Of a stretch of DNA of 64,000 nucleotides, positions 1,521 through 53,948 are shown in pieces (the first letter of the stretch is position 1; every line of letters starts with the position of its first letter). The position numbers were made by a program, and so were the translations under genes. The DNA lies in NCBI GenBank assembly GCA_029260215.1, contig JAJDDQ010000078.1:1-64000 (forward strand), written 5' to 3'. Source of the stretch: Phycisphaerae bacterium. GTDB lineage: Bacteria; Planctomycetota; Phycisphaerae; UBA1845. The notes under the pieces were generated by a model. That model saw only the letters and a list, made by a program, of their open reading frames with translations, had not been told where the DNA came from and did not search any database.

Positions 1521-1662
1521 GACGACGGTTTCACAAAGACGGAAGATTCAGCATTGAGGTGGCCAACAGATATTGTGCCGAAAAACGCACTACTCGATCA
1601 GCGGTGATCCGGTGACCACCAAAACTTGACGATGCGTTGTGCGGCAGCGATGTTGCGCAATC

Positions 1663-2870: not shown

Positions 2871-4775
2871 TTGAAGGCTACAGGAATCATACTCATCTTT
2901 TCGCTGGCGATGATGGCTGGCTGCGCCTCGACGGGGCAGCACGTGACGAAACACTCCTGGCCCGTGCCGAAATACGACGCGCGGACTTTTTTCGAAACGA
3001 CCAGCCTGGGCGGAGCGTCGTTTTCGCACGATGAATCGCGCATCCTCATGTCCAGCGACGCGACGGGCGTGTTCAACGTCTACAGCCAACCGGCGACCGG
3101 TGGCGAGCCGACCATGCTGACCAACTCGGCCAGCGAATCGCTGTTCGCCGTGCGTTATTTTCCGGACGACGACCGTGTGCTCTATCGGGCTGACAAGGGC
3201 GGCAACGAGCGCACGCACGTTTACGTGCGCGAGGTCGACGGCTCGGTTCGTGATCTCACACCGGGCGATGAAGTGCGTGCGAGCTTCGCCGGCTTCTCCG
3301 AAGATCGTAAATCCTTCTGGATCACGACCAACGAACGCGATCCCAAGCATATGGACCTGTACCGCTTCGCGACCGACGGCTACGCGAGAGAGCTGGTATT
3401 TACCAACCTCGAAGGCTGGGATGTTTCCGACGTTAGCCGCGACGGTCGATGGATCGCACTGACCAAGGTACGCACCAACGCCGACAATGATGTCTTCGTC
3501 TGGGACACGACCAATCCCGAGGCGGAACCCGTACTGGTCACGTCGCACGAAGGCAACGTCAACCACGGCGTGCTCACGTTCACGCCTGACGGGGCGGAAC
3601 TTTACTACACAACCGACGAGCACGGCGAATTCGCACAGGCGTGGTCGGTGTCGCTCGAAGATCGATCGCACAAGCTCGTCGTGCAGGCCAACTGGGACGT
3701 GTCCAACGTGACGTTTTCGGAGAAGGGCCGATACCGCGTGACGGCGACCAACGAGGATGCGAAGACTGTCGTGCGGATTTTCGACACACGCACGAATCGC
3801 AATGTACGCCTGCCGCAGTTGCCCGCGGGTGAGATTCAGAACGTGCGTTTCTCGCCGAGCGATTCGAAGATGGCCTTCTATGCAAGCAGCGATCGTTCAC
3901 CGCCGAATCTGTATGTGCTGGACATGAACTCGGGTGGTTTCCAACGGCTGACCGATTCGATCAACCCGGCCATCAAGTCGAGTCATCTGGTCGACGGGGT
4001 TGTTGTGCGTTATCAGAGTTTCGACGGTCTGGAGATTCCCGCCCTGTTGTATCGTCCGCGCGGCTCATCGGGCGAGAACAAAGCTCCGGGGCTGGTGTGG
4101 GTTCACGGCGGACCTGGCGGGCAGAGTCGCCTTCGATACAACGCGGCGCTGCAGCATCTCGTCAATCACGGCTACGCGGTGTTGGCTGTCAACAATCGCG
4201 GATCGAGCGGTTACGGCAAGACGTTTTTCCACCTCGACGATCGCCGCCACGGCGAGGACGATCTTCAGGATTGCATCTGGGGTCGGCGGTATCTGGAATC
4301 GCTGGACTGGATCGACGGTGACAGCATCGGAATCTTCGGAGGCAGCTACGGCGGGTTCATGGTGGCGGCTGCCCTGACGCTGGAGCCGGAGGCGTTCGAT
4401 GCGGGCGTCAACATTTTCGGCGTGACCAACTGGGTTCGCACGCTGACGAGCATCCCGCCTTGGTGGGAGTCGTTTCGCGAGATGCTTTACGCGGAGATGG
4501 GCGATCCCGAAACCGACGGCGAACGACTCCACCGGATTTCGCCTTTGTTTCACGCTTCGAATATCACCAAGCCGCTGCTCGTCGTTCAGGGTGCGAAAGA
4601 CCCACGCGTGCTGCCGGTCGAAAGCGACGAACTGGTAGCCGCCGCCCGCAAGAACGGCACGCCGGTCGAGTACGTCCTGTTCCCCGACGAGGGCCACGGG
4701 TTCCGCAAGCGCGAGAATCGCATTACGGCTTCGGAGGCGTATGTCCGGTTTCTGGATAAGTATCTGCGCGACTGA
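2871..4775 (+). CDS. S9 family serine peptidase (prolyl oligopeptidase / dipeptidyl aminopeptidase-like) lipoprotein with N-terminal beta-propeller
   Basis: Catalytic motifs are present: GGSYGGFM (the GxSxGG nucleophile elbow), WVHGGPGGQ and DEGHGF. The TTG start at 2871 is preceded by GGAG and gives MKATGIILIFSLAMMAGC, a signal peptide with a lipobox. It is in frame with track ORF 2493..4775. Confidence 0.8.
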   Translation: MKATGIILIFSLAMMAGCASTGQHVTKHSWPVPKYDARTFFETTSLGGASFSHDESRILMSSDATGVFNVYSQPATGGEPTMLTNSASESLFAVRYFPDDDRVLYRADKGGNERTHVYVREVDGSVRDLTPGDEVRASFAGFSEDRKSFWITTNERDPKHMDLYRFATDGYARELVFTNLEGWDVSDVSRDGRWIALTKVRTNADNDVFVWDTTNPEAEPVLVTSHEGNVNHGVLTFTPDGAELYYTTDEHGEFAQAWSVSLEDRSHKLVVQANWDVSNVTFSEKGRYRVTATNEDAKTVVRIFDTRTNRNVRLPQLPAGEIQNVRFSPSDSKMAFYASSDRSPPNLYVLDMNSGGFQRLTDSINPAIKSSHLVDGVVVRYQSFDGLEIPALLYRPRGSSGENKAPGLVWVHGGPGGQSRLRYNAALQHLVNHGYAVLAVNNRGSSGYGKTFFHLDDRRHGEDDLQDCIWGRRYLESLDWIDGDSIGIFGGSYGGFMVAAALTLEPEAFDAGVNIFGVTNWVRTLTSIPPWWESFREMLYAEMGDPETDGERLHRISPLFHASNITKPLLVVQGAKDPRVLPVESDELVAAARKNGTPVEYVLFPDEGHGFRKRENRITASEAYVRFLDKYLRD

Positions 4776-35203: not shown

Positions 35204-37933
35204 TTAGCCCCGGTGACCTCTGGCTTGGCTGCTCTTGTTCACGAATTCCGCGTCCAGGACCTTCTCGATGCGCTGCTTCGCTTCATCGAGGTGTGCGAGC
35301 GTGTAAGCGTCCAGCTTGTCGCGCGAAAGGTCGAGCGCGACCTCGATGTCGTCGTGAATGTCCTTGAGCGTCATGCGTACGATCGAGTATGCATCCGCGT
35401 TGAGGCCTCGGCTCGGGCCGGCCAAGTGTATGTTGATCAGCCGGTTGAGGTAGGCACGCTGGAGGTTGCGTCTCGTGCTCGAAATCCTCGGCTTGCGATT
35501 GGTGTACCTGCCGGACGGTGCGCCGTCGAGTTCGGTCCAGATCGCTTTCGTAACCGTGTTGAACAACTCGGGCACGGTCATGGCGTCCTCATCGGCGGGC
35601 ACTTTCAGCTCTCCGTCGTAGATGCGATTGATGACCATCGGGTTGATGAGAATCGTCAACACGCGCGACTGCATGCCGAGGATGCGGTCGTGGACGTCAT
35701 AGGAAACGTCGAAGTTCATCTGATCGCTGTCCCAGTGAATGAATCGTCCGGCGGCCAGCTTGTTCAGCAACTCCGGCGAGAAATCGTAGTATTCGTCGCT
35801 GAAAACCGTGTCAGCCAGAAGACTCAGCGCTTCACGCTGTTTGGCGACCGGCACGATTTCGATGGGCGGCTTGGCGTTGGGATCACCCTTGTGGTGACGG
35901 TGGACGACCTGTCCGCCGACCAGGCGGGCGGCGATACGGGCACTGAAGCCGTATTCGTTGGTGACGATGTTGAACGCGCGGCGCATGCGTGCGTAGCTCT
36001 CACCATCCTTGACAGCCCGATCGGGAAGGTCTTTTAACAACCGGCGCGACAAAGCCATACGGTGCTTGGCGTAGGCGATCGGATCGTCGCCGTTGTCGTA
36101 GCGGTACGTGTAGGGGTCGGGTCCGAACTCGGAAGTATCCTCGTCGGTCCCGTAGGCCAACCCGTCCTCCGCCACGCGCGAGAGAATCGTTTTGAGCATG
36201 TCGCCTTCGGATTTCGCATCACCACCGGACGAGAACTGACTGTAGCCATACGCGATGGCCCAATCGTCGTAGGGGCCTGTAGTCTGGGACACGAAATCGC
36301 TCTGCTCGATCTCAGACTGAGCGTACTCGGCGGGGTTGTAATCCATGATCGATCCGGTGAGCGCACGGGATTCGGAACTGGGCGAGAGCACATCGCTGAG
36401 TTTCTTCCAGGAACTGCCCTTGAAGTTGTGACGAAGCCCGAGCGTGTGCCCGACCTCGTGGGCGACGATTTCCCGGATGACCTGTCCGACGAACTCCTCG
36501 GGCAGATCGCGATTGCCATTCTGCACGGAAAGAAGCTGGTTGAAAGCCATTTGATGTACCATGCCGCGTCCAAGATCGCAGGCGCTGTCCCGCTGATCGA
36601 AAAAGCGTGTGGGCGTGGACACGGTCTCGGTCTCGAACATGTGCGCGCCAGCCGCGTATTCGGGCGTCAGTTGTTCCATCATCGGCGTGAACTTGTATTC
36701 GGGGAATTCGCGGAAGAAGTCGTCACGCATAGGGTCGTCGTGCATGTCGAACGCCGACGAACCCATGAGCGTATTCTCCTGGATGTAGAAGCGGACCATC
36801 GAATCATCGAAGATGATATCCGCATCGAGAATCTGGCCTGTGAACGGGTTCACGCGTGAAGGTCCGCGTGCGAAGGCTCGGCCGCTGACAATCCAGCGGA
36901 AGAAGTTGTAGCGGATATCCTCCGGGTCGAGGTCTTTGAATTCGTTGGTGTCGGTTTGCTGGCGGACTTGAACGGCGCTTAGCAGGCCGACCTTCTCAAA
37001 CGCGTCGTTCCATTCAAGGATGCCTTCGCGCACGTAGCGACGGAACTTCACCGGCACGGTCTTTTCGATGTAAAAGACGATCGGGTTCTCGACGGGTGAT
37101 TCCGTGGCTCTGGGGTCTTGCTTGCGCAGGTTCCACCGATGGATGTAGCGTTTGAAAATGGTCGGATCGTTGTGATCGGTGCTCCAGTCTTTCTGTGCGG
37201 TCATGAAGTAGCCGATGCGATCGTCAGCCTCGCGCGGCTTGTAATCGTTCTTCGGGATTTCAGAGAGGCTGACATACACCGATGCGATCACGCCGTCCGA
37301 TGCAGGCCCCTTGCCCATGTAGGCAGCGTCGACGGAAATCTCCACGTTGTGCGGAAAGGTTTTGATCGTGCTCCAGCGCGAGAGTTTGGCGTCCATGCGC
37401 CGGCTGCCGTACGCGCTGCCCAGACCGACGAAATCCGTCTTGAGCAGGTCGCCGAGGTCGATGACCGGATCACCGCCGGGGGCTTCGGTCTTGATGTCGA
37501 GGGCTTTGACGATGGTGTCGGTGTAGGTTCTGCCGACAACGTCCTCAACGGTGCTGCCCTTGGCATCCTTGTAGCGCGTGTCGGACTCCATGAGGACGAG
37601 CTTCTTGTCGTGACGCTCCCAGTAGAGGGCGCTGCCGCCGAGCATCCAGCCAGCGTAGGTCGGTCCTTTTGAGACCGAGAGGCTGAGCAGGAAAGGCTTC
37701 TTGATTTTCGATTTGGGAATCCTGGCCAGCAGCGTGTCTTTTTCCTTGTCGAAGTAGAGCGTGAAGAACCCTTCCTTGACTTCCATGTCTTTGACGACTT
37801 CGTCGAATTTCGGGAAATCGTCCTTGTCTTTCTTGCCCGCGAGCGCGGACGACGGAGCAAGCATGCCGGCAAGCAGCAGGACCATCGCCGCTCGAGCGAA
37901 ATAGTTGGTCGAGTTTGTCATTGCGTGATTCAT
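35204..37933 (-). CDS. secreted zinc-dependent metalloprotease (zincin HExxH; DUF5117/DUF4953-type), ~909 aa
   Basis: VAHEVGHTLGLRHNF contains the HExxH motif. A signal peptide is present. It is paralogous to the downstream gene. Confidence 0.75.
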   Translation of the reverse strand: MNHAMTNSTNYFARAAMVLLLAGMLAPSSALAGKKDKDDFPKFDEVVKDMEVKEGFFTLYFDKEKDTLLARIPKSKIKKPFLLSLSVSKGPTYAGWMLGGSALYWERHDKKLVLMESDTRYKDAKGSTVEDVVGRTYTDTIVKALDIKTEAPGGDPVIDLGDLLKTDFVGLGSAYGSRRMDAKLSRWSTIKTFPHNVEISVDAAYMGKGPASDGVIASVYVSLSEIPKNDYKPREADDRIGYFMTAQKDWSTDHNDPTIFKRYIHRWNLRKQDPRATESPVENPIVFYIEKTVPVKFRRYVREGILEWNDAFEKVGLLSAVQVRQQTDTNEFKDLDPEDIRYNFFRWIVSGRAFARGPSRVNPFTGQILDADIIFDDSMVRFYIQENTLMGSSAFDMHDDPMRDDFFREFPEYKFTPMMEQLTPEYAAGAHMFETETVSTPTRFFDQRDSACDLGRGMVHQMAFNQLLSVQNGNRDLPEEFVGQVIREIVAHEVGHTLGLRHNFKGSSWKKLSDVLSPSSESRALTGSIMDYNPAEYAQSEIEQSDFVSQTTGPYDDWAIAYGYSQFSSGGDAKSEGDMLKTILSRVAEDGLAYGTDEDTSEFGPDPYTYRYDNGDDPIAYAKHRMALSRRLLKDLPDRAVKDGESYARMRRAFNIVTNEYGFSARIAARLVGGQVVHRHHKGDPNAKPPIEIVPVAKQREALSLLADTVFSDEYYDFSPELLNKLAAGRFIHWDSDQMNFDVSYDVHDRILGMQSRVLTILINPMVINRIYDGELKVPADEDAMTVPELFNTVTKAIWTELDGAPSGRYTNRKPRISSTRRNLQRAYLNRLINIHLAGPSRGLNADAYSIVRMTLKDIHDDIEVALDLSRDKLDAYTLAHLDEAKQRIEKVLDAEFVNKSSQARGHRG

Positions 37934-37972
37934 ATCGAAAAATTCCTTTGGATTCTGGTTTGTTAAATTAAA

Positions 37973-40726
37973 TTAGAGCTTGAAGTCAGCATCGAGGGCT
38001 TTGTCGATTCGGGCCTTTGATTCGTCGAGGTGTGCCCGTGTGAACGCATCCAGCTTGCCGTCGCCGGCTGCCAGGAAATCGCCGATTTGCTGGGACAGTC
38101 CCTTCAGTGTCAGCCGCGTGACCGAGTGGGCGTCCGCTGGCATGGTCCTGCCCGGTTTTTCCAGGAGGATTCCGACGAGCATGTTGAGCTGCGTTCGCTG
38201 CAGCGAGCGGCGAATGCTCGAAATGCAAGGTTTGCGGTTTGAGTAATTGCCGTTGGCAGCGCCGGTCAGCTCAGACCAGATAGCCCGTGTGACCCTGGAC
38301 ATCACCTCGGGGACGGTCATTGCGTCTTCGTCCGCAGGAATCTTTGATTCCGCGTCGTAGATGCGTCCCAGTGTGATCGGGTTCATTAGGTGGAACAGCG
38401 GCCAATACTGTGTGGCGGCGATGCGATCGTGCAGTGGATAGTCGCGTTTGCTGTCGAATTCATCGCTGGCCCAGTGGCGCCAATGGCCCGAGCCCAACCT
38501 GGTGATCAGATCGGGGTCGAAAATGAAGGCTTTGTCGCTGAAAAGGTGTTCTACGAGAAAGTCCAGCGCTTCGCGCTGCTTCTTGACCGGCACGACGACG
38601 GTAGGCGGCTGCTCGTCGGGATCGCCTCGGTGGTTGCGTGTGACGTATTGTCCGCCCACAAATCGCCCGGCGAATCGCGAGACCCTGCCGTACTCGAAGA
38701 GCAGCGCATCGAACGCCCGGCGCAGGCGGCTGTAGGCATCGCCGTCTTCCATCGCCCAGGAATCGATGTCCTTTTGAAGGTGCTGCACCAGTTCGATGCG
38801 GTACTTGGCGTAGGCGATGGGGTCGTCGCCGTTGTCGTAGACGTTGACCAGCGGGTCCGGTGCGAACGTGCCCCGATCCTCGTCGGAGGCGTACGCATGT
38901 CCCGGCTCGGCTGACCGCGATGCGATGGACTTCAGAAGCTCTTTTTCGGTTTTGAACTCGTCGTCCGTATGCCGGTAGCCGTATTCGATCGCCCATTCAT
39001 CGTAGGGTCCGAGACCGACGCCGTAGAAATTCTTCTGGTTGTCTTCACTCGTGTTGAACATGGCTGGGCAGTAGTCCATCACCGAGGCCGACGTGGGTAC
39101 GTTGGCATCGCCGTTGGTTGCGAGGATTTCCTCAAGGGATTTCCACGAACTGGCTTTGAAGTTGTGACGCAGACCCAGGGTATGCCCGACCTCGTGGGAG
39201 ACGAGCCATTTGACGAATTGGCCTGTGTATTTCTCGCTCAGCCCTTGGCCGCCCTCGGCTTTGAGGATCAGGTTTGCAAAGGCCATCTCATGGTTCATGC
39301 CGCTCGCGTAGGTGCAGACAGCCTGGTCCTGGTGGAGCATGCTCTGAACCCACTCGTGATCCCAGGCTGTTTCCGCGCCGCCGTAGTGCGTTGTGTTGGG
39401 GAGCAGTTGCTCCTGTTGCGGTACGAACGCCCATTCAGGGTGAAGGGAAAGAAACTCGCGGGCCTGGGGATCCCAAGCGGCTGTCGGACCCTTGGCGGCC
39501 ATCCGTTCGTACTTGGCGTTGATGGCGCGCAGGAACGAATCGTCGATGACGATGTCGGCGTCGAGGATTTGCCCGGTTTTGGGATTGGTTCGCGACGGGC
39601 CCATTGCGAACGCCCTGCCGCTGACGATCCAGCGGATAAAGTTGTAACGCACGTCTTCGGGATCGAGGTCTTTGAATTCGTTGGTGTCGGTCTGCTGGCG
39701 GACAGCCACCGCGTTCAGCAAACCCGCTTTGGCGAAAGCGTCGTTCCACATGAGCACGCCTTCGCGGATGTAGCGGCGGTACTGGAGCGGAATCGTTTTT
39801 TCGAGGTAGAAGACGATTTGGTCGTCCGGGTGGACGTCTGAGACCTTGGCATCGGGGTCGGCTTTGCGCAGATGCCAGCGATGCACGCGGCGATCGAAGA
39901 CGGTCGTGGCGTTGTGGTCTTTGCTCCAATCCTTGACCGCGCTCATGAAGTACCCGACGCGGTCGTCGGCTTGACGCGGTTTGTAGCCGTTTTTTTCCGG
40001 CAACTCACTGATGCTGTAATGCACGCGGGCCAACACACCGTTTTCGTTGCCGCGCATGAGGGCGGCTTCGACGGTTAGCTCGATGTTCTTCTCGAAGGCT
40101 TTGGTGGTCACCCACTTGCTGAGCGACGCACTCATGCTGGCTGAGTAAAACCGGCTGATGCCGATCCGGTCGCGTTTGAAGACCTTATCCAGATCGATGA
40201 CCGGGTCGCTCCCGCGCTTGCTGACGATCTTGGTCGCGAAAAGAATGCGATCGGTATACGTCCTGGCCACCACATCCTTGACCGTGGATTTGTCCGCCGT
40301 CGCGTAGCCTAGGTCGGGGCTGACCAGGATGAGCTGCTTGTCGCGTTCCTCCCAGCGGACGACGTAGCCTCGCCACATGTACCCGGTCATGGTCGGCCCG
40401 CCGGATATGCTCGTCGAGATCAAAAAGTCCTTGCCGATCATTTTCTTGGGGATGACGCCGAGCAGGTGGTCCTTCTTCTTATCGTAATAGAGATCGAAGA
40501 ATCCGGGAGTCTTTTCGTGCCCCTCGCTGACTTCGTCAAAGGGTGGGAAGTCGGGCTTTTTCTCCTTCTCTTTTTTCTCGTCCTTGGGTTTTTCCGCTGC
40601 CGGTGGGGCATGGGGTTTGGCGGGCGGATCTTCCGCGCGCGTCGCACCGGGCGACAGGGCGATCAAACAGGCACAAACGCCGACCCATCCGATTGACGAA
40701 CCGGGCGACCACAACTTGAGATTCAT
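37973..40726 (-). CDS. secreted zinc-dependent metalloprotease, tandem paralog
   Basis: VSHEVGHTLGLRHNF is present. It is collinear with the upstream paralog, for example WNDAFEKVGLL vs WNDAFAKAGLL and VRQQTDTNEFKDLDPEDIRYNFFRWIVSGRAFA in both. The start is MNLKLWS (40726), preceded by AAGGAG. Confidence 0.75.
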   Translation of the reverse strand: MNLKLWSPGSSIGWVGVCACLIALSPGATRAEDPPAKPHAPPAAEKPKDEKKEKEKKPDFPPFDEVSEGHEKTPGFFDLYYDKKKDHLLGVIPKKMIGKDFLISTSISGGPTMTGYMWRGYVVRWEERDKQLILVSPDLGYATADKSTVKDVVARTYTDRILFATKIVSKRGSDPVIDLDKVFKRDRIGISRFYSASMSASLSKWVTTKAFEKNIELTVEAALMRGNENGVLARVHYSISELPEKNGYKPRQADDRVGYFMSAVKDWSKDHNATTVFDRRVHRWHLRKADPDAKVSDVHPDDQIVFYLEKTIPLQYRRYIREGVLMWNDAFAKAGLLNAVAVRQQTDTNEFKDLDPEDVRYNFIRWIVSGRAFAMGPSRTNPKTGQILDADIVIDDSFLRAINAKYERMAAKGPTAAWDPQAREFLSLHPEWAFVPQQEQLLPNTTHYGGAETAWDHEWVQSMLHQDQAVCTYASGMNHEMAFANLILKAEGGQGLSEKYTGQFVKWLVSHEVGHTLGLRHNFKASSWKSLEEILATNGDANVPTSASVMDYCPAMFNTSEDNQKNFYGVGLGPYDEWAIEYGYRHTDDEFKTEKELLKSIASRSAEPGHAYASDEDRGTFAPDPLVNVYDNGDDPIAYAKYRIELVQHLQKDIDSWAMEDGDAYSRLRRAFDALLFEYGRVSRFAGRFVGGQYVTRNHRGDPDEQPPTVVVPVKKQREALDFLVEHLFSDKAFIFDPDLITRLGSGHWRHWASDEFDSKRDYPLHDRIAATQYWPLFHLMNPITLGRIYDAESKIPADEDAMTVPEVMSRVTRAIWSELTGAANGNYSNRKPCISSIRRSLQRTQLNMLVGILLEKPGRTMPADAHSVTRLTLKGLSQQIGDFLAAGDGKLDAFTRAHLDESKARIDKALDADFKL

Positions 40727-41066
40727 GATTAAGGCTCCTTGCATCCACCGTCACCAAACGTGCCGACGAGTTTGTTTCGAGATTCTGAACGAAACGCTCA
40801 TGCCCTCCGCCCGATTCTCGCAATTTCGAGAGTATAACGGAAGTTGCCGCGAAAAAGCGTGCCGCCAACCGGCGAGTTGACAGCTTATTACATATTGAGT
40901 TTCCTACCCAAACCGGGTATCGACCGGGAGTCGCCCGCAGCATTTGTCGAAGTTGCCGGTGTTTTCGCCGGTTGTGTGGCTGGCTGGGCTGGTGGCGGCC
41001 AGGATCGTGGCGGCGATTCCAGCGTATTCGCACCTGACGCGACGCGCGTCTTTTTTTGTAGGAAAT

Positions 41067-43226: not shown

Positions 43227-43256
43227 GGGAAACGCAGATTCATGTGAGGTAGGAAT

Positions 43257-43275
43257 CTAGCTGCGTCCCCGTTTC
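43257..43275. repeat. left terminal inverted repeat (19 bp)
   Basis: It exactly matches the reverse complement of 44260-44278. Confidence 0.8.
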
Positions 43276-43549
43276 AACGTTTCAAAATCTTTCAAAATCC
43301 TGTTCCGCGCGGCGGGCCATCTCATCAAAAGAACCACGTAAAGTCGGCAGACGAAAGACAAGTACGGCGGGTTGGTTCACAACGGTCACTTCAATGGCGT
43401 AGTGCGATGTCATGAGGATGAGCTTGGGAAACCGCTGCAATGGAAAAAGCCGGGCCGTAGCACGTCTCGGTGAAAACGAAAAAGGCTAATTGACAAATCA
43501 CGAGCACGAAATTATGGCTTTCTGTCGGGCACTGTTAGCATGGTGATCG

Positions 43550-44035
43550 ATGAGTGAGAAGATCGGCATGGATGAAGAATCACAGAATTCTGTCGTAGAT
43601 TTGATGGCGTGCTTGGAACGCGGATACTGCCTACGGGGGCTCGCAGAGTCACGGTGCCCAGAGTGCGGAAAGTCCTTTGATCTCGAATTAGTCATGCGGC
43701 GTAACGCCGCTGTTCAAGCGAGCGATCGCTATTTCAAGAACTACTCAGTCATACTGGTTTTGTGGCCGGTCATAGTCTTGTTGGAAAGACCGTTGTTCGG
43801 TACAAGCGCCCTGACAAGTGTCTTCGACCGTTTGACCTCTGACCACGCGAACAACATGTTGTGGAAAATGACATTCTTGAATATCCCACTCCAAGCTGTC
43901 CTCGCAGTCACAGGTTTCTATTGTATTCGCCAGAACAACGCGTCGACAAAACGGATCGGAAAACTGTCGATCATCGTCACGACGGCAATCCTAATCCTCT
44001 ATGGTGCTTACTCTGCTTCCTCGTTGTGGAATTGA
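43550..44035 (+). CDS. small Zn-ribbon membrane protein (family member) carried inside the TIR-bounded islet
   Basis: MACLERGYCLRGLAESRCPECGKSF carries the family motif. Three TM helices follow. GC is low. Confidence 0.55.
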   Translation: MSEKIGMDEESQNSVVDLMACLERGYCLRGLAESRCPECGKSFDLELVMRRNAAVQASDRYFKNYSVILVLWPVIVLLERPLFGTSALTSVFDRLTSDHANNMLWKMTFLNIPLQAVLAVTGFYCIRQNNASTKRIGKLSIIVTTAILILYGAYSASSLWN

Positions 44036-44217
44036 GGACAATTTCCAAAGTCATTATCGTTCGTGTTCGCCCCACAAGTAAACTGGCAATTTACAAGATC
44101 ATCTGAAACCAAGTTGTAGCAGCAATCGTCACAATCTGGTGTATTACAAGACTGGTGACAGAATCCCTGGGCAGTCAATGCGTCGTTCTGACATGCAGCA
44201 GCATTGATTGCACACAA
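44008..44217 (-). CDS. possible Cys-rich small protein (69 aa, 10 Cys); doubtful
   Basis: It has only a TTG start and no internal Met. It lies in a low-GC segment where strand assignment is ambiguous. Cys spacing is C-x7-C…C-x3-C…C-x2-CC…C-x3-C…C. Confidence 0.2.
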   Translation of the reverse strand: MCAINAAACQNDALTAQGFCHQSCNTPDCDDCCYNLVSDDLVNCQFTCGANTNDNDFGNCPQFHNEEAE

Positions 44218-44259
44218 TCCTGCACCACCGATAATGCCGCCGATAATTTCGATGGGAAT

Positions 44260-44278
44260 GAAACGGGGACGCAGCTAG
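44260..44278. repeat. right terminal inverted repeat (19 bp)
   Basis: It exactly matches the reverse complement of 43257-43275. Confidence 0.8.
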
Positions 44279-44598
44279 TTTTGACGCCGATTCTTACCAG
44301 CGACAGCCTCCGTGGATACCGAGAACGGCGAGAGCAGCACCGGGCGGATTCGTGCATCACGTGCTGAACCGGGCGGTGGCGCGTCTGCGGGTGTTTCGCA
44401 AGGAGGCGGATTGTGCGGCCATCGAGCGTGTGATGCTGGATGCGTACGAGCGGGGGCCGTGCGAAACGTGGCTTCGAGCGTGCGTGAATCGGTTTTGAGG
44501 CGGTGTTCACGCGCCTGGGGTGGGGTGAATCCATCTACCTCGAATATGTTGTCTGATCTTGTCGCACAGGGTAGCCTACCTGTCTCGGGTCGCTGCTG

Positions 44599-46968
44599 TT
44601 GATCCAGAGGGGAATGGAAGCCATGCACACACGACACGCGGTGGTGATCGTCTATCTGGTCTTTGCGGGCTTGCCGGCGGCGGGCGGCGAGCCTTTGATC
44701 GGTGGGGGCAAGCACGTCGAATCTCCGTCGTCGTGCCTTTCGCTGACAGACCGGGCGGGCATCGAAAGCAAACTTGCGGCGCTCCCTTCTGTCGGCCAAT
44801 CGTCAGATTCCGGCGAGGCGTCTCCGCCGCTCCTGCGTTTCTTCCCGTTGGCGGGGCGCATGTGGGGTGATCTTTACTTGTTCAACTACGTCGATCTCGA
44901 TCCGTCGGTCGAGTTCAGCGATTGGAATTGCACGAGCCGGACGTACGACGGACATCAGGGAAGCGACACGGACATTCGCAGTTTCGGGGAGCAACTGATC
45001 GGTGTGCCGGTCTACTCCGCCCAAGACGGTGTGGTCGTCGATACGCACGACGGCGAACCGGACATGAACACAGTTTGGGACAACCAGCCGGCGAACTACG
45101 TCATTATCGATCACGGGTTTGGGCGTTTGGGGTGGTATTTCCATTTCAAGAAAGACAGTGTGGCGGTTGTGGTTGGGCAGCGTGTTCGCGCGGGGCAGCA
45201 GATTGGGCTGTGCGGGTCGAGTGGAATCAGCACGGGGCCTCATCTTCATTTTGAACTGCGCGAGAACGGTGCGGTCCACGAACCATTCACCGGCCCCTGC
45301 CACGACGAGGTCAGCAGTTGGGAAGTGCAGCCCGAGGCCAGCGAACAGTCCTATGTGCATGATTTCGGATTTTCTTACCAGATCATTTCGGCTGACTGGC
45401 CTGCGGTTTGGCCCCGGACGGGTCAGGTCGGGTTGTTGGATCCGGTGATACGCGTTTGGTGGTACGGCACGGAGTTGCCGGTTGGCAGCGGCTGGCGTGT
45501 GCAGTTTTTTCGTCCGGATGGTTCGATGGCCTTCGATGGCAGTGAACAGTTCTTCGGGAATTCGATACCGTGGCGGTGGTACAGTTGGTGGTGGACGTAC
45601 AACGTCGCGGATATGCACACGATCATGGGCACGTGGCGGATGAAGTTGATCGTCAACGATATCGAGCTGGTCGACGCGCCGATCGAGGTGCGTGAGATGC
45701 GTACGGCGGATTTCAACCGCGCCCCAGCGGCGATTACGGCTGACCTTGTTCCGCAGCCGGCGTTTCCGGGTGACGCTTTGATCTGCCGGGTGGATTCTGA
45801 TCTCGTGCTGGATGATCTTGACTACGATATCGTGCGTTATGAATACGTCTGGACTGTTGACGACGAGGAAGTGAGGTGGGTGACGACGGCGGCTCACTCG
45901 GATACGTTGCCGCACCACATTGCTCATTATGGTGAAAGCGTTGCGTGTGCGGTGACGCCGGGCGACGGGCGTGATGTCGGTCCGATGTCGGTTGCGAGTG
46001 TGATGATTCAGTGCCCGCAGCGTTTTGACTTTTCGTGCGACGGTGATGTCGATCTTGTGGACTACGATTCTTTTTTTGAATGCTGGTCGGGGCCTGGGGT
46101 GCCGGCGGCTGGGATGTGCGGTCAGGCTGATTCCGATGGTGATCTCGATGTCGATCTTGCGGACTATGGGGTGTTCGTGCAGGTTTATTCGGGCGACTGC
46201 GGTGCGCGGATCACTGGTGATCCTGTGGACGAGACCGTTTGTCCGGGTGAATCGGTCGTGCTCAGTGTCGGTGTGGAAGGTGGGGAGTTGGCCTACGAGT
46301 GGATGCGTGACGGCGTGCCGATTTCAGGCGAAACGGCAGACACGTTGACCATCGATTCTGTGACGAAGCAAGACGCCGGTGCGTACGAGGTTCGTGTGAC
46401 GGGCGCGTGCGGTGTGGATTATTCGAGCGCGGCGCGCGTGAGTTTGATCGCTCCGCCGATTGTTTCCACGCAACCGTCGAGCCAATCGACGTGCATCGGC
46501 GACAGTGCGATCATGAGCATTCAGGCCAACGATGCGGGTACGCTAAGTTATCAGTGGCGGCGGAATGGGGAAGATATTGCGGGTGCGGATGAACCGGACT
46601 ATGAGGTGCCGTTTGTGGCGCAAGACGATCTGGGACAGTATTCCTGTGTGGTTTCGGACGGATGCGGTCAGCAAAATTCGTCAATGGAGGCCACATTGAC
46701 TGAGTGGCCTGAACCTTTGATTTCGGTCCAACCTTTCGGTACGACGATTTGTGAAGGCGAGTCGATCTTTCTGTTCATCAGCGCTCAGAACGTTACATCG
46801 TATCAATGGTACAAGAACGGAGAGGTTCTTCAGAACGGCGGCAGCGCATTCCTGAGCGTTTCGAATGCGTCGGTTGTGGATTCGGGCGGTTACCACGTCG
46901 TGGCGAGCAGCCCATGTGACTCCACTCAGTCCAAGGTTGCTCCGGTTCAGGTGGTCTTTTGCAGATAA
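44599..46968 (+). CDS. secreted M23 family metallopeptidase (LytM/lysostaphin-like) with dockerin-like and C-terminal Ig-like repeat domains
   Basis: M23 motifs GHQGSDTD and GSSGISTGPHLHFE are present. Acidic repeats are CDGDVDLVDYDSFFECW and DSDGDLDVDLADYGVF. About four ~90-aa Ig-like repeats (…AYEWMRDGVPISGETADTLTIDSVTKQDAGAYEVRVTGACG…) follow. Confidence 0.75.
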   Translation: MIQRGMEAMHTRHAVVIVYLVFAGLPAAGGEPLIGGGKHVESPSSCLSLTDRAGIESKLAALPSVGQSSDSGEASPPLLRFFPLAGRMWGDLYLFNYVDLDPSVEFSDWNCTSRTYDGHQGSDTDIRSFGEQLIGVPVYSAQDGVVVDTHDGEPDMNTVWDNQPANYVIIDHGFGRLGWYFHFKKDSVAVVVGQRVRAGQQIGLCGSSGISTGPHLHFELRENGAVHEPFTGPCHDEVSSWEVQPEASEQSYVHDFGFSYQIISADWPAVWPRTGQVGLLDPVIRVWWYGTELPVGSGWRVQFFRPDGSMAFDGSEQFFGNSIPWRWYSWWWTYNVADMHTIMGTWRMKLIVNDIELVDAPIEVREMRTADFNRAPAAITADLVPQPAFPGDALICRVDSDLVLDDLDYDIVRYEYVWTVDDEEVRWVTTAAHSDTLPHHIAHYGESVACAVTPGDGRDVGPMSVASVMIQCPQRFDFSCDGDVDLVDYDSFFECWSGPGVPAAGMCGQADSDGDLDVDLADYGVFVQVYSGDCGARITGDPVDETVCPGESVVLSVGVEGGELAYEWMRDGVPISGETADTLTIDSVTKQDAGAYEVRVTGACGVDYSSAARVSLIAPPIVSTQPSSQSTCIGDSAIMSIQANDAGTLSYQWRRNGEDIAGADEPDYEVPFVAQDDLGQYSCVVSDGCGQQNSSMEATLTEWPEPLISVQPFGTTICEGESIFLFISAQNVTSYQWYKNGEVLQNGGSAFLSVSNASVVDSGGYHVVASSPCDSTQSKVAPVQVVFCR

Positions 46969-51133: not shown

Positions 51134-52466
51134 GTTCGATACTCGATAGCTGCGTCAGTTCGATATCGTCGAAGTAGTGTCGCAGGATCTGTTCGTATTG
51201 GAAACCGTTGATGGCCATTCCAAGGGCACCGATCTGACACATGCCCGCGCCATGTCCCCAGCCCCCACCGCGAAACGTGAAGCGGGTCGGTTCGCCGGCG
51301 TTGTCTCGTGCAATATCAACCACGAACGCGCTGCTGTACAGAAACGAATCGCACAAAGCGTTGCGGATGTTGTACTGGTCTTCAATAATCGTGGCTACTT
51401 GGCGACCGTCTCTGTTGATGTAAACGATTTTCACTTCCACGGCTCGCCCACTGAACCCCCGTCGCGTCACGACGAGATCGTACACGCTTTGAAGGTCGAT
51501 GCCGTCGTCGCCGAACGTTGCGAAGTGTTTGCGACGGAGAATATCCGCGAATTCGTCGGGGCCGTAACTCACCTCCCAGCGGAATCGCCCGCAACCGTCG
51601 TCCACTCTGCCCAGGAATTTCGGCAGGTCGCCATCCGGCACAACGGAAGGGCTGCAGAACGCATCGCTTCCCTGCTGAAGATATTCCTCCATGTTCGCAT
51701 CCGCAATCGGGTACAACCCATGCAATGCTGTGCCCGGCGGTGCGTCGACCACGCTGCGTTGGCCGGGTTTGCGATTCGACCACACGTGTTCCGGCGATTC
51801 ACTCACACCGCCGCAGCTCTTGGAATAGTTCGCGTCGACAATCACGCGTCGCCGTGCGATTTCAGGGTCGGGCGCCGTCATAACGATACCGGCTGTCTTC
51901 TCGACTGCGCGACGTGCTGCATTGGTGATCGCCCCCAAACCTTGGAACCGCTGACAACAATCATCGTTGCAAAGATCGATGCCAAGATTGGCGTGTTTGC
52001 GCTCACTCGCAACCGCCGTCCAGGATCGGGCCACGACGCATTGTGCTTTGAGGAACTCGATCGGCGCATCGCCGCTCATCTCGGCTGTGATGACTCCTTG
52101 CAGGTACTGTTCAAGCGGAAGTTCGTTGACGATGAACAAATACCCGTTGTGACTCGTGATTTCAATCAACCCTGACAGGGCTGTGTCGATATGCCTGGAC
52201 CAGTGAAAACCGCGACCGGCTGGGCAATCATGGACGACGGTCTTCTGTGCAGCGTCCCGCGATACGATTCGGACGATGGGTTGCCCATCGGTGTGGACGC
52301 GACCGTCGTCTGCGTATCCGGCAACGCAATCGCCATGTGCGCGATAGGTGATACGATCTCCGTCTGATGTCCCGCCCGCCGGTGCAAGCGTCAGGTCCAC
52401 CGACGTAATCTTGTCTTGCGGAAGGATGATTCCGATCTTGATGTCGACGTCTGAATTCGTACTCAT
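51126..52466 (-). CDS. SpoIID/LytB domain protein (cell-wall amidase enhancer / lytic transglycosylase-like)
   Basis: LEQYLQGVITAEMSGDAPIEFLKAQCVVARSWT matches the SpoIID core (EEYL.GVV..EM…EALKAQAVAART). It overlaps the murQ start by 8 nt. Confidence 0.7.
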   Translation of the reverse strand: MSTNSDVDIKIGIILPQDKITSVDLTLAPAGGTSDGDRITYRAHGDCVAGYADDGRVHTDGQPIVRIVSRDAAQKTVVHDCPAGRGFHWSRHIDTALSGLIEITSHNGYLFIVNELPLEQYLQGVITAEMSGDAPIEFLKAQCVVARSWTAVASERKHANLGIDLCNDDCCQRFQGLGAITNAARRAVEKTAGIVMTAPDPEIARRRVIVDANYSKSCGGVSESPEHVWSNRKPGQRSVVDAPPGTALHGLYPIADANMEEYLQQGSDAFCSPSVVPDGDLPKFLGRVDDGCGRFRWEVSYGPDEFADILRRKHFATFGDDGIDLQSVYDLVVTRRGFSGRAVEVKIVYINRDGRQVATIIEDQYNIRNALCDSFLYSSAFVVDIARDNAGEPTRFTFRGGGWGHGAGMCQIGALGMAINGFQYEQILRHYFDDIELTQLSSIERE

Positions 52467-52518
52467 TTCTATCGTTGCGATTCAGGAACAAGGGAAACAT
52501 CAAGCCTCGGTGCCCAGT

Positions 52519-53034
52519 TTACGAACTTGGCGAGACGCATTGCTCATCGAGGAATTCTCTCCATCGATCTGTTTCCGCAAAATCTTTCAATATTCGATTT
52601 CGTTCAATGAGGAATGAACGCATGTATCTTGTTAGAAAAACGCGCTCCGCGATGCGGCCGAGAGCCCAGAGGGGGGCTTGAAACCTGAATTCATCCGTCA
52701 TTTCCGTTAGGCCGGAGATTTCTTTGAATAGGTGCGTGTGTTTCATGGATGCAAATGCGCCATCCACCATTTCATCCGTAAAAAACAAGGGACGTTCGAA
52801 TTCAGTTAATCTGATTTTCAACTGCTGCGTCACGCCGAAGTGTTTTGCTTGCCAAGTGACTTCCTCTCCCAGCCCGATAAGGCCGGTCGTCTTTCCCTCA
52901 ATCGCTACTTCTCTCGTGCCGGAGGTTGATGCCATGTGTGCGTCAATACTTCGGGATAAATCAAAAACTCGTTCTATCGGAGCGTTGACGATTGTTCTGA
53001 TGTTAATTAACGGCATAGCCTTCATACTCAGCAT
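52519..53034 (-). CDS. SRPBCC superfamily protein (polyketide cyclase/START-like)
   Basis: INIRTIVNAPIERVFDLSRSIDAHM… is a typical Polyketide_cyc2 N-terminus. GC is locally low (~48%). Confidence 0.6.
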   Translation of the reverse strand: MLSMKAMPLINIRTIVNAPIERVFDLSRSIDAHMASTSGTREVAIEGKTTGLIGLGEEVTWQAKHFGVTQQLKIRLTEFERPLFFTDEMVDGAFASMKHTHLFKEISGLTEMTDEFRFQAPLWALGRIAERVFLTRYMRSFLIERNRILKDFAETDRWREFLDEQCVSPSS

Positions 53035-53681
53035 ACGTCCAGGTCTTTCGCAATGTCACGCCCGCACTCTGGACAGCGAAGCCCGCCGGTGAGGCCAAAC
53101 AGATCGTAACCGCAACATTCGCACACGCGCAGCCCATACCGTGCCAGCGCCCGGCGGACGGACCTCAGGCGGCCGATCCTCGCCACGTCCCACGGCATGA
53201 TCCACTTGTAGATAGCGAAAATGAGAAAAACGGGTGCCGCCGCCGAAAACATGATTCGCCCGCCGGTGATACCAGAGGCTCCGAAGATCATCCACGGTAT
53301 CGGAATGATCAGCGGAGCGATGCTGTAGAATGGACGCACTTCATAGTGCAGCGCCGCGCCGTGTTCCGCCTCCTCGATTCGCAGCGCGATCCGTGTCCAT
53401 GAGTTGACCGAAGCCGTCCGCTGCCGGAAGTTGAAACCATCCACCGATTCACGCCCGATCAAGTTGTCGGCATCGAGCACGACTCGAACAGCCTGGCGAA
53501 TCTGTGCCGCGTCGGCGGTCGTTTGCCATCGTTCGCGAAGGATGGCGGGACCGTTTCGATAGTACCAGCCGGCAAAGCGGTAGTATGCAGCAGCCTCAAA
53601 CCAAAGGGCCATCTCGAAGACCACGATGAGGATCAGCGGCACAAGAAGGTCCGTCGGGATTCTGGAGAGAAACGAAGTCAT
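53028..53681 (-). CDS. membrane protein with C-terminal Zn-ribbon (family member)
   Basis: C-terminal segment is CECCGYDLFGLTGGLRCPECGRDI. There are 4 TM helices. It overlaps the SRPBCC gene by 7 nt. Confidence 0.55.
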   Translation of the reverse strand: MTSFLSRIPTDLLVPLILIVVFEMALWFEAAAYYRFAGWYYRNGPAILRERWQTTADAAQIRQAVRVVLDADNLIGRESVDGFNFRQRTASVNSWTRIALRIEEAEHGAALHYEVRPFYSIAPLIIPIPWMIFGASGITGGRIMFSAAAPVFLIFAIYKWIMPWDVARIGRLRSVRRALARYGLRVCECCGYDLFGLTGGLRCPECGRDIAKDLDVC

Positions 53682-53948
53682 GCTGTCCTCACGGCGACGA
53701 TCATCGTTGGGTCCGTGACACTTCCGGCGGGGCGGCCACGGTTTATCAGAACCGCGACACTGAGAGCGCCCAATGCGGAAGCACGAAGGGAGCGGCCGAG
53801 CCGCGAATGTGTTACACGTTTTTTCGTCCGTACCAGCCGTTCTGATAAGAGATTTCGAATTCCGCCTATGTTGTCACAAACCCACCATCGTCTCGCCGCC
53901 GATTAACCCGTGGTTGCCGAGCGCCCGGCGTGGTATCGTAATACGATC

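What the first reader, a model, noticed from the sequence alone, without database searches (positions are those of the whole stretch)
43257..44278. TIR-bounded 1-kb low-GC islet carrying a Zn-ribbon membrane protein and a Cys-rich mini-ORF
A perfect 19-bp inverted repeat (CTAGCTGCGTCCCCGTTTC and GAAACGGGGACGCAGCTAG) flanks a ~1022-bp segment. Its GC content is ~48%, against ~62% for the host. The segment sits between an ABC exporter and an M23 peptidase gene. It carries no transposase, only a 161-aa Zn-ribbon/TM protein of the family that recurs across the window and an opposite-strand 69-aa ORF with 10 Cys. This is the architecture of a non-autonomous mobile element (MITE/IS-derived) carrying cargo. 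Alternatively it could be a recombination module that spreads the Zn-ribbon gene family.
Basis: seen in the sequence. Interest (0 to 1): 0.8.

Follow-up and report, generated by a model that had tools for sequence, protein, structure and literature searches.

The report
Transposase end-repeats flanking an orphan gene
The two "terminal inverted repeats" are copies of a short repeat that normally brackets an IS200-like tyrosine transposase gene in many Planctomycetota; here one copy heads a dead remnant of that gene, and the 1-kb low-GC stretch lies between two repeat units, so it is not a transposon carrying cargo.

Summary
A perfect 19/20-nt inverted repeat (43257-43275 and 44260-44278) brackets 984 bp of 48.7% GC, the lowest-GC kilobase of a 59% GC window.

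The repeat is not private to this islet. The 19-mer occurs exactly in at least 120 stretches of Planctomycetota genomes, as hairpin dimers, as direct arrays, and on both sides of ~230-aa Y1/HUH (IS200-like) transposase genes. This is the "TIRtron/TIRYT" arrangement of Di Nocera 2013.

The right arm is the canonical 5' repeat of such a gene. It sits 38 nt before a mutated start codon (ATA), and only the first ~51 codons survive (44310-44462, 69% identical to full-length homologues).

In the family, the GAAAC ends face outward. Around the islet they face inward, so the islet lies between two units, not inside one.

Its interior is unique. The 161-aa membrane protein has only distant relatives, and the Cys-rich ORF shows no sign of being a gene. 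There is no target-site duplication.

The closest syntenic relative has ABC exporter and M23 peptidase genes 93 bp apart, against 1396 bp here, so the whole block is lineage-specific.

Verdict: a decayed member of a known kind of element, not a MITE with cargo. Modest interest.

The parts
43257..43275 (+). Left arm: an orphan copy of the Planctomycetota Y1-transposase end repeat (CTAGCTGCGTCCCCGTTTC). The extended match runs 43254-43276. It lies 30 nt after the ABC exporter stop codon.
   Evidence: The same 19-mer has 211 exact copies in 120 loci of other genomes.
43271..43306 (+). Partial reiterations of the GTTTC side of the repeat (GTTTCAAC GTTTCAAAATC TTTCAAAATC).
   Evidence: Read directly. 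Similar partial reiterations occur in the arrays of L018 and L068.
43276..44259 (.). The islet interior: 984 bp at 48.7% GC, with no matching DNA found in any collection searched.
   Evidence: GC; no similar DNA in the loci, plasmids or phages.
43550..44035 (+). A real gene: a 161-aa protein with an N-terminal, partly degenerate zinc-ribbon motif and three hydrophobic segments. It belongs to a small family of 135-170-aa proteins.
   Evidence: GC3 (0.61) exceeds GC1 and GC2. A gene was called here on the Logan contig. It is found only as itself in the word-indexed search. The exhaustive search gives full-length relatives at 21-35% identity.
44008..44217 (-). The 69-aa, 10-Cys ORF: probably not a gene.
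   Evidence: GC3 (0.43) is close to GC2 (0.41) and below GC1 (0.49), so there is no third-position GC excess. It has only a TTG start, and an in-frame TAG lies inside the right arm. No homologue was found. It was not called on the Logan contig. No Pfam or NCBIfam hit.
44260..44278 (-). Right arm: the 5' terminal repeat of a decayed Y1-transposase unit (reads GAAACGGGGACGCAGCTAG on the + strand).
   Evidence: It ends 38 nt before the former start codon. The canonical distance in homologous loci is 37-41 nt, and the orientation there is always the same (15 of 15).
44281..44309 (+). Promoter-like remnant of the Y1 gene: TTGACG, 17 nt, then CAGCCT (homologues have TAGGCT, TAACCT or TAGGTT).
   Evidence: Comparison of upstream regions in L034, L039, L048 and L077. 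This is a consensus resemblance only.
44310..44462 (+). N-terminal remnant of an IS200-like Y1 (HUH) transposase. The start codon ATG has become ATA at 44316. About 51 codons are conserved, and the frame runs on to a stop at 44496-44498. The remnant ends before the HUH and catalytic Tyr motifs.
   Evidence: tblastn gives 68.6% identity, E 1e-17, to L026:5876-6592. Alignment. Full-length homologues hit Pfam Y1_Tnp above its threshold, and NCBIfam REP_Tyr_transpos below its cut-off.
43227..44622 (.). The whole lineage-specific spacer between the ABC exporter and the M23 gene (1396 bp): repeat, islet, repeat, Y1 remnant.
   Evidence: The syntenic locus L153 has orthologues at 71% (met-zincin), 63% (ABC) and 46% (M23) identity. 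Its spacer is 93 bp and holds no repeat copy.

Best explanation
The two arms are independent copies of the terminal repeat of a Y1/HUH (IS200-like, RAYT-related) transposase unit that is widespread in Planctomycetota. This is the arrangement published as a "TIRtron" with its "TIRYT" transposase.

**The canonical unit.** It reads 5'-GAAACGGGGACGCAGCTAG, then a promoter, a Y1 gene of about 230 aa, then CTAGCTGCGTCCCCGTTTC-3'. The same two ends, with almost nothing between them, form 19-23-bp hairpin dimers. Single copies and direct arrays also litter intergenic DNA.

**In the window.** The right arm is the 5' end of one such unit. Its gene has decayed: the start codon is lost, the -10 box is altered, and everything after about codon 51-56 is gone, including the catalytic motifs. 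The left arm is an orphan copy at the 3' side of the ABC exporter gene.

**The islet.** The low-GC kilobase between the arms carries one real orphan gene for a small membrane protein with a zinc-ribbon-like N-terminus. It is accessory DNA lying between two repeat units. The whole 1.4-kb block is an addition to an ancestrally short ABC-M23 spacer.

**What is shown and what is inferred.**
- Shown: the repeat family, its orientation rule, the transposase remnant, and the extra DNA relative to a relative.
- Inferred: the repeats were spread in trans by Y1 transposases acting on single-stranded DNA. Inferred from family knowledge: the present pair is a scar without a function of its own and cannot move the islet. 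No catalytically complete Y1 gene is in the window, and the ends point the wrong way.
For: - **Distribution.** The 19-mer matches exactly in at least 120 stretches of Planctomycetota MAGs of several families. It has 211 copies in 832 kb. Close inverted pairs are GAAAC-out in 24 of 26 cases, and there are direct arrays with 20-50-nt spacing.
- **Association with the Y1 gene.** 26 of the 120 loci encode a homologue of the window fragment. The repeat lies upstream in one orientation in 15 of 15 cases, mostly 37-41 nt before the Met. It lies downstream in the opposite orientation in 8 of 9 cases, within -13 to +3 nt of the stop. Sequences are shown.
- **Family identity.** Full-length homologues score 36.6 and 42.7 bits on Pfam Y1_Tnp (threshold 23). 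Their best NCBIfam match is REP-associated tyrosine transposase (52-54 bits, cut-off 80).
- **The window fragment.** It is 69% identical over 51 aa, and the repeat-to-start distance is 38 nt.
- **Folding.** Dimers fold at -27 kcal/mol (z = -12.8). Single arms do not fold (z about 0).
- **Recurrent decay.** Similar 3'-truncated Y1 genes sit next to a 5' repeat in L044, L080, L085 and L033.
- **Syntenic relative.** L153 has a 93-bp spacer and no repeat.
- **Published description.** TIRs flanking Y1 genes, occurring as singles, dimers and groups: PMC3733652. The class is assigned to Y1 subclass 2.1 with a C-terminal extension: PMC6006769.
Against: - Only two copies are visible in this genome's 64 kb, and no intact Y1 gene. 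Activity in this lineage is therefore not shown.
- The relative with the short spacer is distant (46-71% protein identity). The exact borders and the order of events (repeat units first or islet first) cannot be read, and the spacer alignment is not significant.
- The loci were collected by exact match to the 19-mer, so the apparent invariance of the repeat is partly a sampling effect.
- Pairs in the islet's orientation 0.9-1.8 kb apart recur in L039, L040, L096 and L110. This leaves some room for a cassette-related role.
Confidence: 0.8

Rival explanations
1. One reading: the 1022-bp segment is itself a non-autonomous TIR-bounded transposon (MITE-like or IS-derived). It carries the Zn-ribbon gene as cargo and is mobilised in trans by a transposase that recognises the 19-bp ends.
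For: - The IR is perfect and far beyond chance.
- The interior has lower GC than its surroundings.
- The ends are shared with a transposase family.
- The block is absent from a syntenic relative.
- Other pairs of the same orientation enclose small accessory genes such as HigBA and a HEAT protein.
Against: - The orientation is opposite to the way the family brackets its transposase and forms its dimers.
- The right arm is accounted for as the 5' end of the adjacent Y1 remnant.
- There is no second copy of the interior anywhere.
- There is no target-site duplication.
- Y1 transposases of the IS200/IS605 group are not known to use simple TIR-bounded cut-and-paste (established knowledge).
Confidence: 0.07
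2. Cassette capture or exchange between repeat units. The islet entered as a circle or by recombination between two repeat-bearing sites, so that repeat units of the Y1 family act as landing pads for accessory cassettes. In this model the inside-out pair is the footprint of that integration.
For: - The same layout (repeat, about 1 kb with a Zn-ribbon membrane protein, repeat, Y1 gene) occurs in L039.
- HigBA and other small genes are bracketed likewise.
- 5 of 6 Zn-ribbon-motif ORFs in the 120 loci lie within 1 kb of a repeat, although only 27% of the bases do.
- The islet has deviant GC.
Against: - Anything lying between two intergenic repeat clusters gets this layout for free.
- At 200-2000 nt, pair orientations show no clear bias: 6 '+-', 4 '-+', and 4 in the same direction.
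- The numbers are small and were counted post hoc.
- No recombinase gene is nearby.
- The other '+-' segments are not clearly low in GC.
Confidence: 0.1
3. Invertible or structural element. The 20-bp inverted repeat mediates inversion of the islet (phase variation). Alternatively, once transcribed from the ABC gene, the arms form a long-range RNA duplex around the zn161 message that controls its processing.
For: - Geometrically the IR could pair, and zn161 and the ABC gene are on the same strand.
- A Logan contig from the source sample breaks 9 nt left of the left arm.
Against: - No invertase or recombinase gene lies among the neighbours.
- No promoter sits at an arm that would be switched.
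- The contig break is not at the IR edge and has simpler explanations.
- The perfection of the arms is explained by family-wide conservation of the 19-mer, not by local selection.
- There is no Rfam match.
Confidence: 0.03

Closest known systems
TIRtron / TIRYT (TIR-associated tyrosine transposase; Di Nocera et al. 2013, PMC3733652; probably Y1 subclass 2.1 of Quentin et al. 2018, PMC6006769)
   Same: - A Y1/HUH transposase gene of the RAYT-related kind is flanked by long inverted repeats that are not themselves palindromes.
- The same repeats are dispersed as singles, dimers and groups.
- The repeat contains GGGGACGC, 7 of 8 positions of the published GGGG[AT][CG]A[CG] motif.
- The protein is long (228-238 aa), with about 90 aa beyond the Y1 domain.
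   Different: - In the window the unit is only a wreck: a 5' repeat plus about 51 codons, and an orphan repeat 1 kb away in the opposite relative orientation.
- This particular 19-mer was not found by sequence in the searchable papers.
- The HTH nature of the C-terminal extension was not shown (no Pfam hit).
REP / RAYT (REPtron) and REPIN doublets
   Same: - A domesticated-looking Y1 transposase is bracketed by inverted short repeats.
- Many non-autonomous copies lie in intergenic DNA, often as hairpin-forming doublets.
- The best NCBIfam match is REP-associated tyrosine transposase.
   Different: - A single repeat is not a palindrome and does not fold.
- There is no GTAG foot; the inner end is CTAG.
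- The NCBIfam score is below the family cut-off.
MITEs (non-autonomous derivatives of DDE-type IS elements)
   Same: Perfect inverted repeats about 20 nt long, with no transposase between them. The family's own short dimers behave like MITE-style empty elements.
   Different: - The islet is 1 kb, coding, single-copy and without a target-site duplication.
- Its ends are oriented inside-out relative to the autonomous unit.
- The associated enzyme is a Y1/HUH transposase, not a DDE transposase.
IS200/IS605 family insertion sequences (IS608 type)
   Same: The transposase fold family is the same (Pfam Y1_Tnp), and single-stranded-DNA chemistry is expected.
   Different: IS200/IS605 ends carry different subterminal hairpins and are not inverted repeats of each other. 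Here the two ends are a 19-nt inverted repeat.

Membership tests
   The IR is perfect over 19-20 nt, against 0.02 matches expected by chance.
   The interior is unique in the window, in 120 repeat-bearing loci, in plasmids and in phages. zn161 is found only as itself in the 5.8-billion-protein search. The rest of the source genome could not be searched.
   The flanks are AGGTAGGAAT on the left and TTTTGACGCC on the right, with no direct repeat.
   The parent unit and its dimers are GAAAC-out (15 of 15, 8 of 9, and 24 of 26). The islet is CTAG-out.
TIRtron / TIRYT | A Y1 (HUH + Tyr) transposase gene of the RAYT-related kind | tested here: met
   - Homologues in L039 and L026 score 36.6 and 42.7 bits on Pfam Y1_Tnp (threshold 23). 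They carry the HWH and RYVERN motifs.
- The window copy is only the first ~51 codons, at 69% identity.
TIRtron / TIRYT | The gene is flanked by long inverted repeats that are not REP palindromes | tested here: met
   - L039 and L034 have both exact ends. Across 26 loci the orientation and distance are constant.
- Single repeats do not fold.
- In the window only the 5' end is in place.
TIRtron / TIRYT | The repeats are also dispersed as singles, dimers and groups | tested here: met
TIRtron / TIRYT | The TIR carries the motif GGGG[AT][CG]A[CG] (in most, but not all, published cases) | tested here: inconclusive
   The repeat has GGGGACGC, which matches 7 of 8 positions.
TIRtron / TIRYT | A C-terminal HTH-like extension (subclass 2.1) | tested here: inconclusive
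   The homologues have about 90 aa beyond the Y1 domain, but no Pfam HTH hit. No solved relative was found by sequence.
REP / RAYT (REPtron) | Each repeat unit is an imperfect palindrome (stem-loop) with a conserved GTAG foot | tested here: not met
   Single arms fold no better than shuffles (z about 0). The inner end is CTAG, with no GTAG.
REP / RAYT (REPtron) | The protein reaches the family threshold of the RAYT model | tested here: not met
   NF047646 scores 52-54 bits, against a cut-off of 80.
Invertible promoter/segment (inverton) | Both orientations are present in a population, and a site-specific recombinase lies nearby | not testable with these tools
   Reads are not available. No recombinase domain was found in the neighbouring genes scanned.

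The most novel reading that the evidence does not exclude
Repeat units of this Y1 (TIRYT-type) family may act across Planctomycetota as landing pads or exchange points for ~1-kb accessory cassettes. Examples seen here are zinc-ribbon membrane proteins, HigBA toxin-antitoxin pairs and Rhs C-terminal orphan modules. If so, the inside-out repeat pair around the islet would be the footprint of a Y1-transposase-linked cassette integration, a mechanism not described for HUH transposases.
Probability: 0.1. Interest if true: 0.65.

Novelty: new member of a known kind. Interest (0 to 1): 0.3.

Why it matters
For this locus the result is mainly a correction. A striking perfect inverted repeat around a low-GC gene is not evidence for a cargo-carrying MITE. 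It is two copies of a family-wide repeat, one of which belongs to a dead tyrosine-transposase gene next door.

More broadly, the work shows a single 19-nt end repeat, kept letter-perfect in many copies, that accompanies IS200-like Y1 transposase genes in both classes of Planctomycetota. It forms hairpin dimers and arrays. This is a convenient marker for annotating these elements and their many truncated remnants in planctomycete MAGs. It is also a defined DNA substrate for testing how TIR-associated Y1 transposases recognise their ends, which has not been tested in the two papers read here (PMC3733652, PMC6006769).

Tried and rejected
- **Insertion borders.** I aligned the 93-bp spacer of L153 to the window flanks. 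By eye it suggested a border exactly at the left arm, but the alignment is not significant: 49 of 300 shuffles score as well on the left and 200 of 300 on the right. It was dropped.
- **Metagenome relatives of the ABC exporter** (29 loci, about 50% identity) have no M23 gene downstream, so they are useless as empty sites.
- **The two closest M23 homologues** (L151, L152; 51% identity) are not syntenic.
- **Direct repeat D1.** The resemblance between the ABC C-terminus (RGLCETQLQA) and the end of the Y1 fragment (RGPCETWLRA) was considered as a duplication. It was rejected: it is 70% over 23 nt, and the Y1 fragment aligns there with Y1 homologues instead.
- **A degenerate partner repeat left of the left arm** (GAAACG..CAGATTC) is too weak to claim.
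- **No hits from database searches.** Rfam; Pfam and NCBIfam for the islet ORFs and for the short Y1 fragment itself; plasmid and phage DNA; viral contigs for the 19-mer.
- **The Cys-rich ORF** has no homologue.
- **Look-ups of the ABC and M23 products**, made to recover the neighbouring Logan or NCBI contigs, failed.
- **Promoter/terminator scan** of the islet gave nothing above background.
- **RAYT remnants elsewhere** in the window or inside the islet: none.
Full report
**1. The observation.**
- CTAGCTGCGTCCCCGTTTC lies at 43257-43275 and its reverse complement at 44260-44278. The match extends to 22 of 23 over 43254-43276 / 44259-44281, with 982 nt between the extended arms.
- With up to three mismatches these are the only copies in the window, against 0.02 expected from shuffles.
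- The 984 bp between the arms are 48.7% GC in a 59.1% GC window. This is the lowest 1-kb stretch of the window, about 4 sd below the mean.
- The 161-aa ORF (43550-44035, +) and the 69-aa, 10-Cys ORF (44008-44217, -) exist.
- The flanking genes are an ABC exporter with a PDZ-like N-terminus (ends 43226) and an M23 peptidase with Ig domains (starts 44623).

- All but one of the 80 listed stretches come from MAGs labelled Planctomycetota: Isosphaeraceae, Planctomycetaceae, Pirellulales, Thermoguttaceae, Tepidisphaeraceae, Phycisphaerales and others. The exception is L039, labelled Gemmatimonadota.
- In those 832 kb there are 211 exact copies.
- Copies occur in three forms. There are close inverted pairs such as GTGAAACGGGGACGCAGCTAG-TTTTCAATT-CTAGCTGCGTCCCCGTTTCAC, direct arrays with 20-50-nt spacing (often with partial reiterations of the GTTTC side), and singles.
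- Of 26 close inverted pairs, 24 have the GAAAC ends outward.
- A dimer folds as single-stranded DNA at -27 kcal/mol (z = -12.8). A single arm with its window flanks folds no better than shuffled sequence.
- The 19-mer is absent from 2.9 million viral contigs.

**3. The gene that goes with the repeat.** Just outside the right arm, the + strand reads ...WIPRTARAAPGGFVHHVLNRAVARLRVFRKEADCAAIERVMLDAYERGPC....
- This fragment has homologues in 24 of the loci that were fetched only through the 19-mer. With a full-length query, 26 of 120 loci match.
- Two full-length homologues were examined: L039:2632-3318 (228 aa) and L026:5876-6592 (238 aa). They hit Pfam Y1_Tnp ("Transposase IS200 like") at 36.6 and 42.7 bits, against a threshold of 23. 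Their best NCBIfam model is REP-associated tyrosine transposase at 52-54 bits, below its cut-off of 80.
- They carry the HUH motif (HWH) and the Tyr motif (RYVERN).
- Whenever an exact repeat lies within 300 nt upstream of such a gene, it reads GAAACGGGGACGCAGCTAG on the coding strand (15 of 15 cases). It usually ends 37-41 nt before the Met.
- Downstream, the repeat reads CTAGCTGCGTCCCCGTTTC (8 of 9 cases), within -13 to +3 nt of the stop.
- Between the 5' repeat and the start codon lies a conserved TTGAC(A/G)-N17-TAGGCT-like pair of hexamers.

This is the arrangement published as a TIRtron. In it, a RAYT-like Y1 transposase (TIRYT) is flanked by long inverted repeats that are not REP palindromes, and the same repeats are dispersed as singles, dimers and groups (PMC3733652). 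The class was later assigned mostly to Y1 subclass 2.1, long proteins with a C-terminal extension (PMC6006769). The published GGGG[AT][CG]A[CG] motif is matched in 7 of 8 positions by GGGGACGC.

**4. What the window holds.**
- The right arm ends at 44278. TTGACG follows at 44281-44286, a weakened -10 (CAGCCT) at 44304-44309, and ATA in place of ATG at 44316. That is 38 nt after the arm, the canonical distance.
- Homology to Y1 proteins runs from 44310 to 44462 (68.6% identity over 51 aa, E 1e-17) and then stops, before the HUH and Tyr motifs.
- No other Y1 remnant exists in the window.
- The right arm is therefore the 5' end of a dead transposase unit.
- Similar 3'-truncated genes next to a 5' repeat occur in L044, L080, L085 and L033, so this kind of decay is common in the family.
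- The left arm is an orphan copy 30 nt after the ABC stop codon. It is followed by small reiterations of its GTTTC side (43271-43306), like those in arrays elsewhere.

**5. Orientation.** The family's own unit and its dimers have the GAAAC/GTTTC ends outward and the CTAG ends inward. Around the islet it is the reverse: the CTAG ends are outside and the GTTTC/GAAAC ends face the islet. The islet is thus DNA between two units, not the content of one. This is the main argument against a TIR-bounded element with cargo. Four further points weigh against that reading:
- There is no target-site duplication.
- The interior has no second copy. Nothing matches in the 120 loci, in plasmids or in phages. 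The protein is found only as itself at the sensitivity of the 5.8-billion-protein search.
- The right arm already has an owner.
- Other pairs in the same orientation, 0.9-1.8 kb apart, enclose unrelated genes. These are a HEAT-repeat protein (L040), HigB/HigA (L110), and an Rhs C-terminal module plus a zinc-ribbon membrane protein followed by a full Y1 unit (L039).

**6. The islet's content.**
- **zn161 is a real gene.** Its GC3 exceeds GC1 and GC2, and it was called on an independent Logan contig that is 100% identical to the window. The exhaustive search finds a small family of 135-170-aa proteins, 21-35% identical over the full length. They have an N-terminal CxxCxYDLRG...CPECG motif and a conserved hydrophobic C-terminal part.
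- In zn161 the second Cys of the first knuckle is replaced (CLER), so zinc binding is uncertain.
- Its closest relative (P0122) sits in an unrelated context with no clear repeat copy nearby (best match 4 mismatches in 19). Function is unknown: a small membrane protein with a cytoplasmic zinc-ribbon-like head.
- **The Cys-rich ORF is probably not a gene.** It has no codon-position GC signal, only a TTG start, an in-frame stop inside the right arm, no homologue and no gene call.

**7. Is the block an insertion?** The lineage has no close relative in the collections; the best M23 homologues are 51% and 46% identical, from Phycisphaerae MAGs. One of them, L153 (GCA_029260155.1), keeps the gene order met-zincin (-), ABC exporter (+), M23 (+), at 71%, 63% and 46% protein identity. 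It has only 93 bp between ABC and M23 and no repeat copy, against 1396 bp in the window. The block of repeat, islet, repeat and Y1 remnant is therefore lineage-specific extra DNA. Its exact borders and the order of events cannot be read at this distance, because the spacer alignment is not significant.

**8. Mechanism.**
- **Shown:** a repeat family tied to Y1 transposase genes with a strict orientation rule, a dead copy of that gene at the right arm, and extra DNA relative to a relative.
- **Inferred from the known chemistry of HUH/Y1 enzymes (IS200/IS605, RAYT):** the repeats are recognised on single-stranded DNA and spread in trans, leaving singles, hairpin dimers and arrays in intergenic DNA.
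- **The present pair is most likely a scar.** It cannot mobilise the islet, because no active enzyme is here and the ends point the wrong way.
- **Possible side effects.** The 20-bp inverted repeat could allow rare inversion or a long-range RNA duplex around zn161. These are conceivable but unsupported: there is no recombinase nearby, no Rfam hit and no promoter at the arms.
- **A more interesting possibility** is that such repeat units serve as landing pads for accessory cassettes. It is hinted at by L039, L110 and the proximity of zinc-ribbon ORFs to repeats (5 of 6 within 1 kb, against 27% of bases). The numbers are small and post hoc, and any gene between two intergenic repeat clusters acquires this layout trivially.

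**9. Verdict.** It is a decayed member of a known kind (TIRtron/TIRYT, RAYT-related) in a phylum where abundant Y1 genes and flanking repeats had been noted (R. baltica, PMC3733652). This particular 19-mer was not found by sequence in the searchable literature. Interest is modest.

Noticed in passing
L018:2090-2900; L068:2690-3400; also L014, L030, L114: The same 19-mer is letter-perfect in many copies in MAGs of both Planctomycetota classes. It forms hairpin dimers (19-23-bp stem, 5-25-nt loop) and direct arrays with 25-30-nt periods. It is absent from viral contigs and was not found by sequence in the paper library.
   Followed up: partly
window 43271-43306; L018:2790-2900; L068:2840-2900 and 3290-3370: The GTTTC side of the repeat is partially reiterated, for example GTCCCCGTTTCACGCCC GTTTCACGCCCC. 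This looks like repeated abortive joining or slippage at that end, and may mark the cleavage side of the transposase.
   Followed up: no
L044:1664-2080; L080:4337-4750; L085:3412-3660; L033:3500-3950: Several Y1 genes next to a 5' repeat are cut off after codon 45-80, like the window copy. In L085 a repeat dimer sits inside the gene at about codon 48.
   Followed up: partly
L034:780-850 (- strand); L039:2600-2640; L048:2640-2700 (- strand); L077:1200-1260; window 44281-44318: A conserved TTGAC(A/G)-N17-TA(G/A)(G/C)(C/T)T lies between the 5' repeat and the start codon. The second hexamer is about 7-10 nt before the ATG, which suggests a leaderless transposase mRNA.
   Followed up: no
L039:44-2521: Two Rhs-type C-terminal modules (...QGINRYAYVNNDPVN... 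followed by glycine-zipper-like tails) are each followed by a zinc-ribbon membrane protein. They lie between copies of the repeat and next to a full Y1 unit, which looks like orphan toxin/immunity cassettes. The contig is labelled Gemmatimonadota although its repeat and Y1 gene are of the Planctomycetota type.
   Followed up: no
L110:5406-6305: A HigB/HigA-like toxin-antitoxin pair is bracketed by the repeat in the same inside-out orientation as the window islet. The identification is from reading the translations, not from a domain search.
   Followed up: no
window 1201-1600 and 51901-52500; ORFs 216-1517, 1630-2805, 53031-53873: The other low-GC patches of the window (about 52%) lie in or near larger ORFs that carry the CxxCxYxLxGLxxxxCPxCG motif. 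None has a repeat copy nearby.
   Followed up: partly
window 43248 (= L121 position 1): A Logan contig of SRR15505518, 100% identical to the window over 10.8 kb, starts 9 nt left of the left arm. This could reflect a graph branch (strain variation or repeat) or just a coverage gap.
   Followed up: partly
window 35204-40744 (- strand): Two tandem paralogous ~910-920-aa met-zincin proteins (DUF5118/DUF5117/DUF4953) lie upstream of the ABC exporter. The one next to the exporter is conserved at 71% identity in the syntenic relative L153.
   Followed up: no
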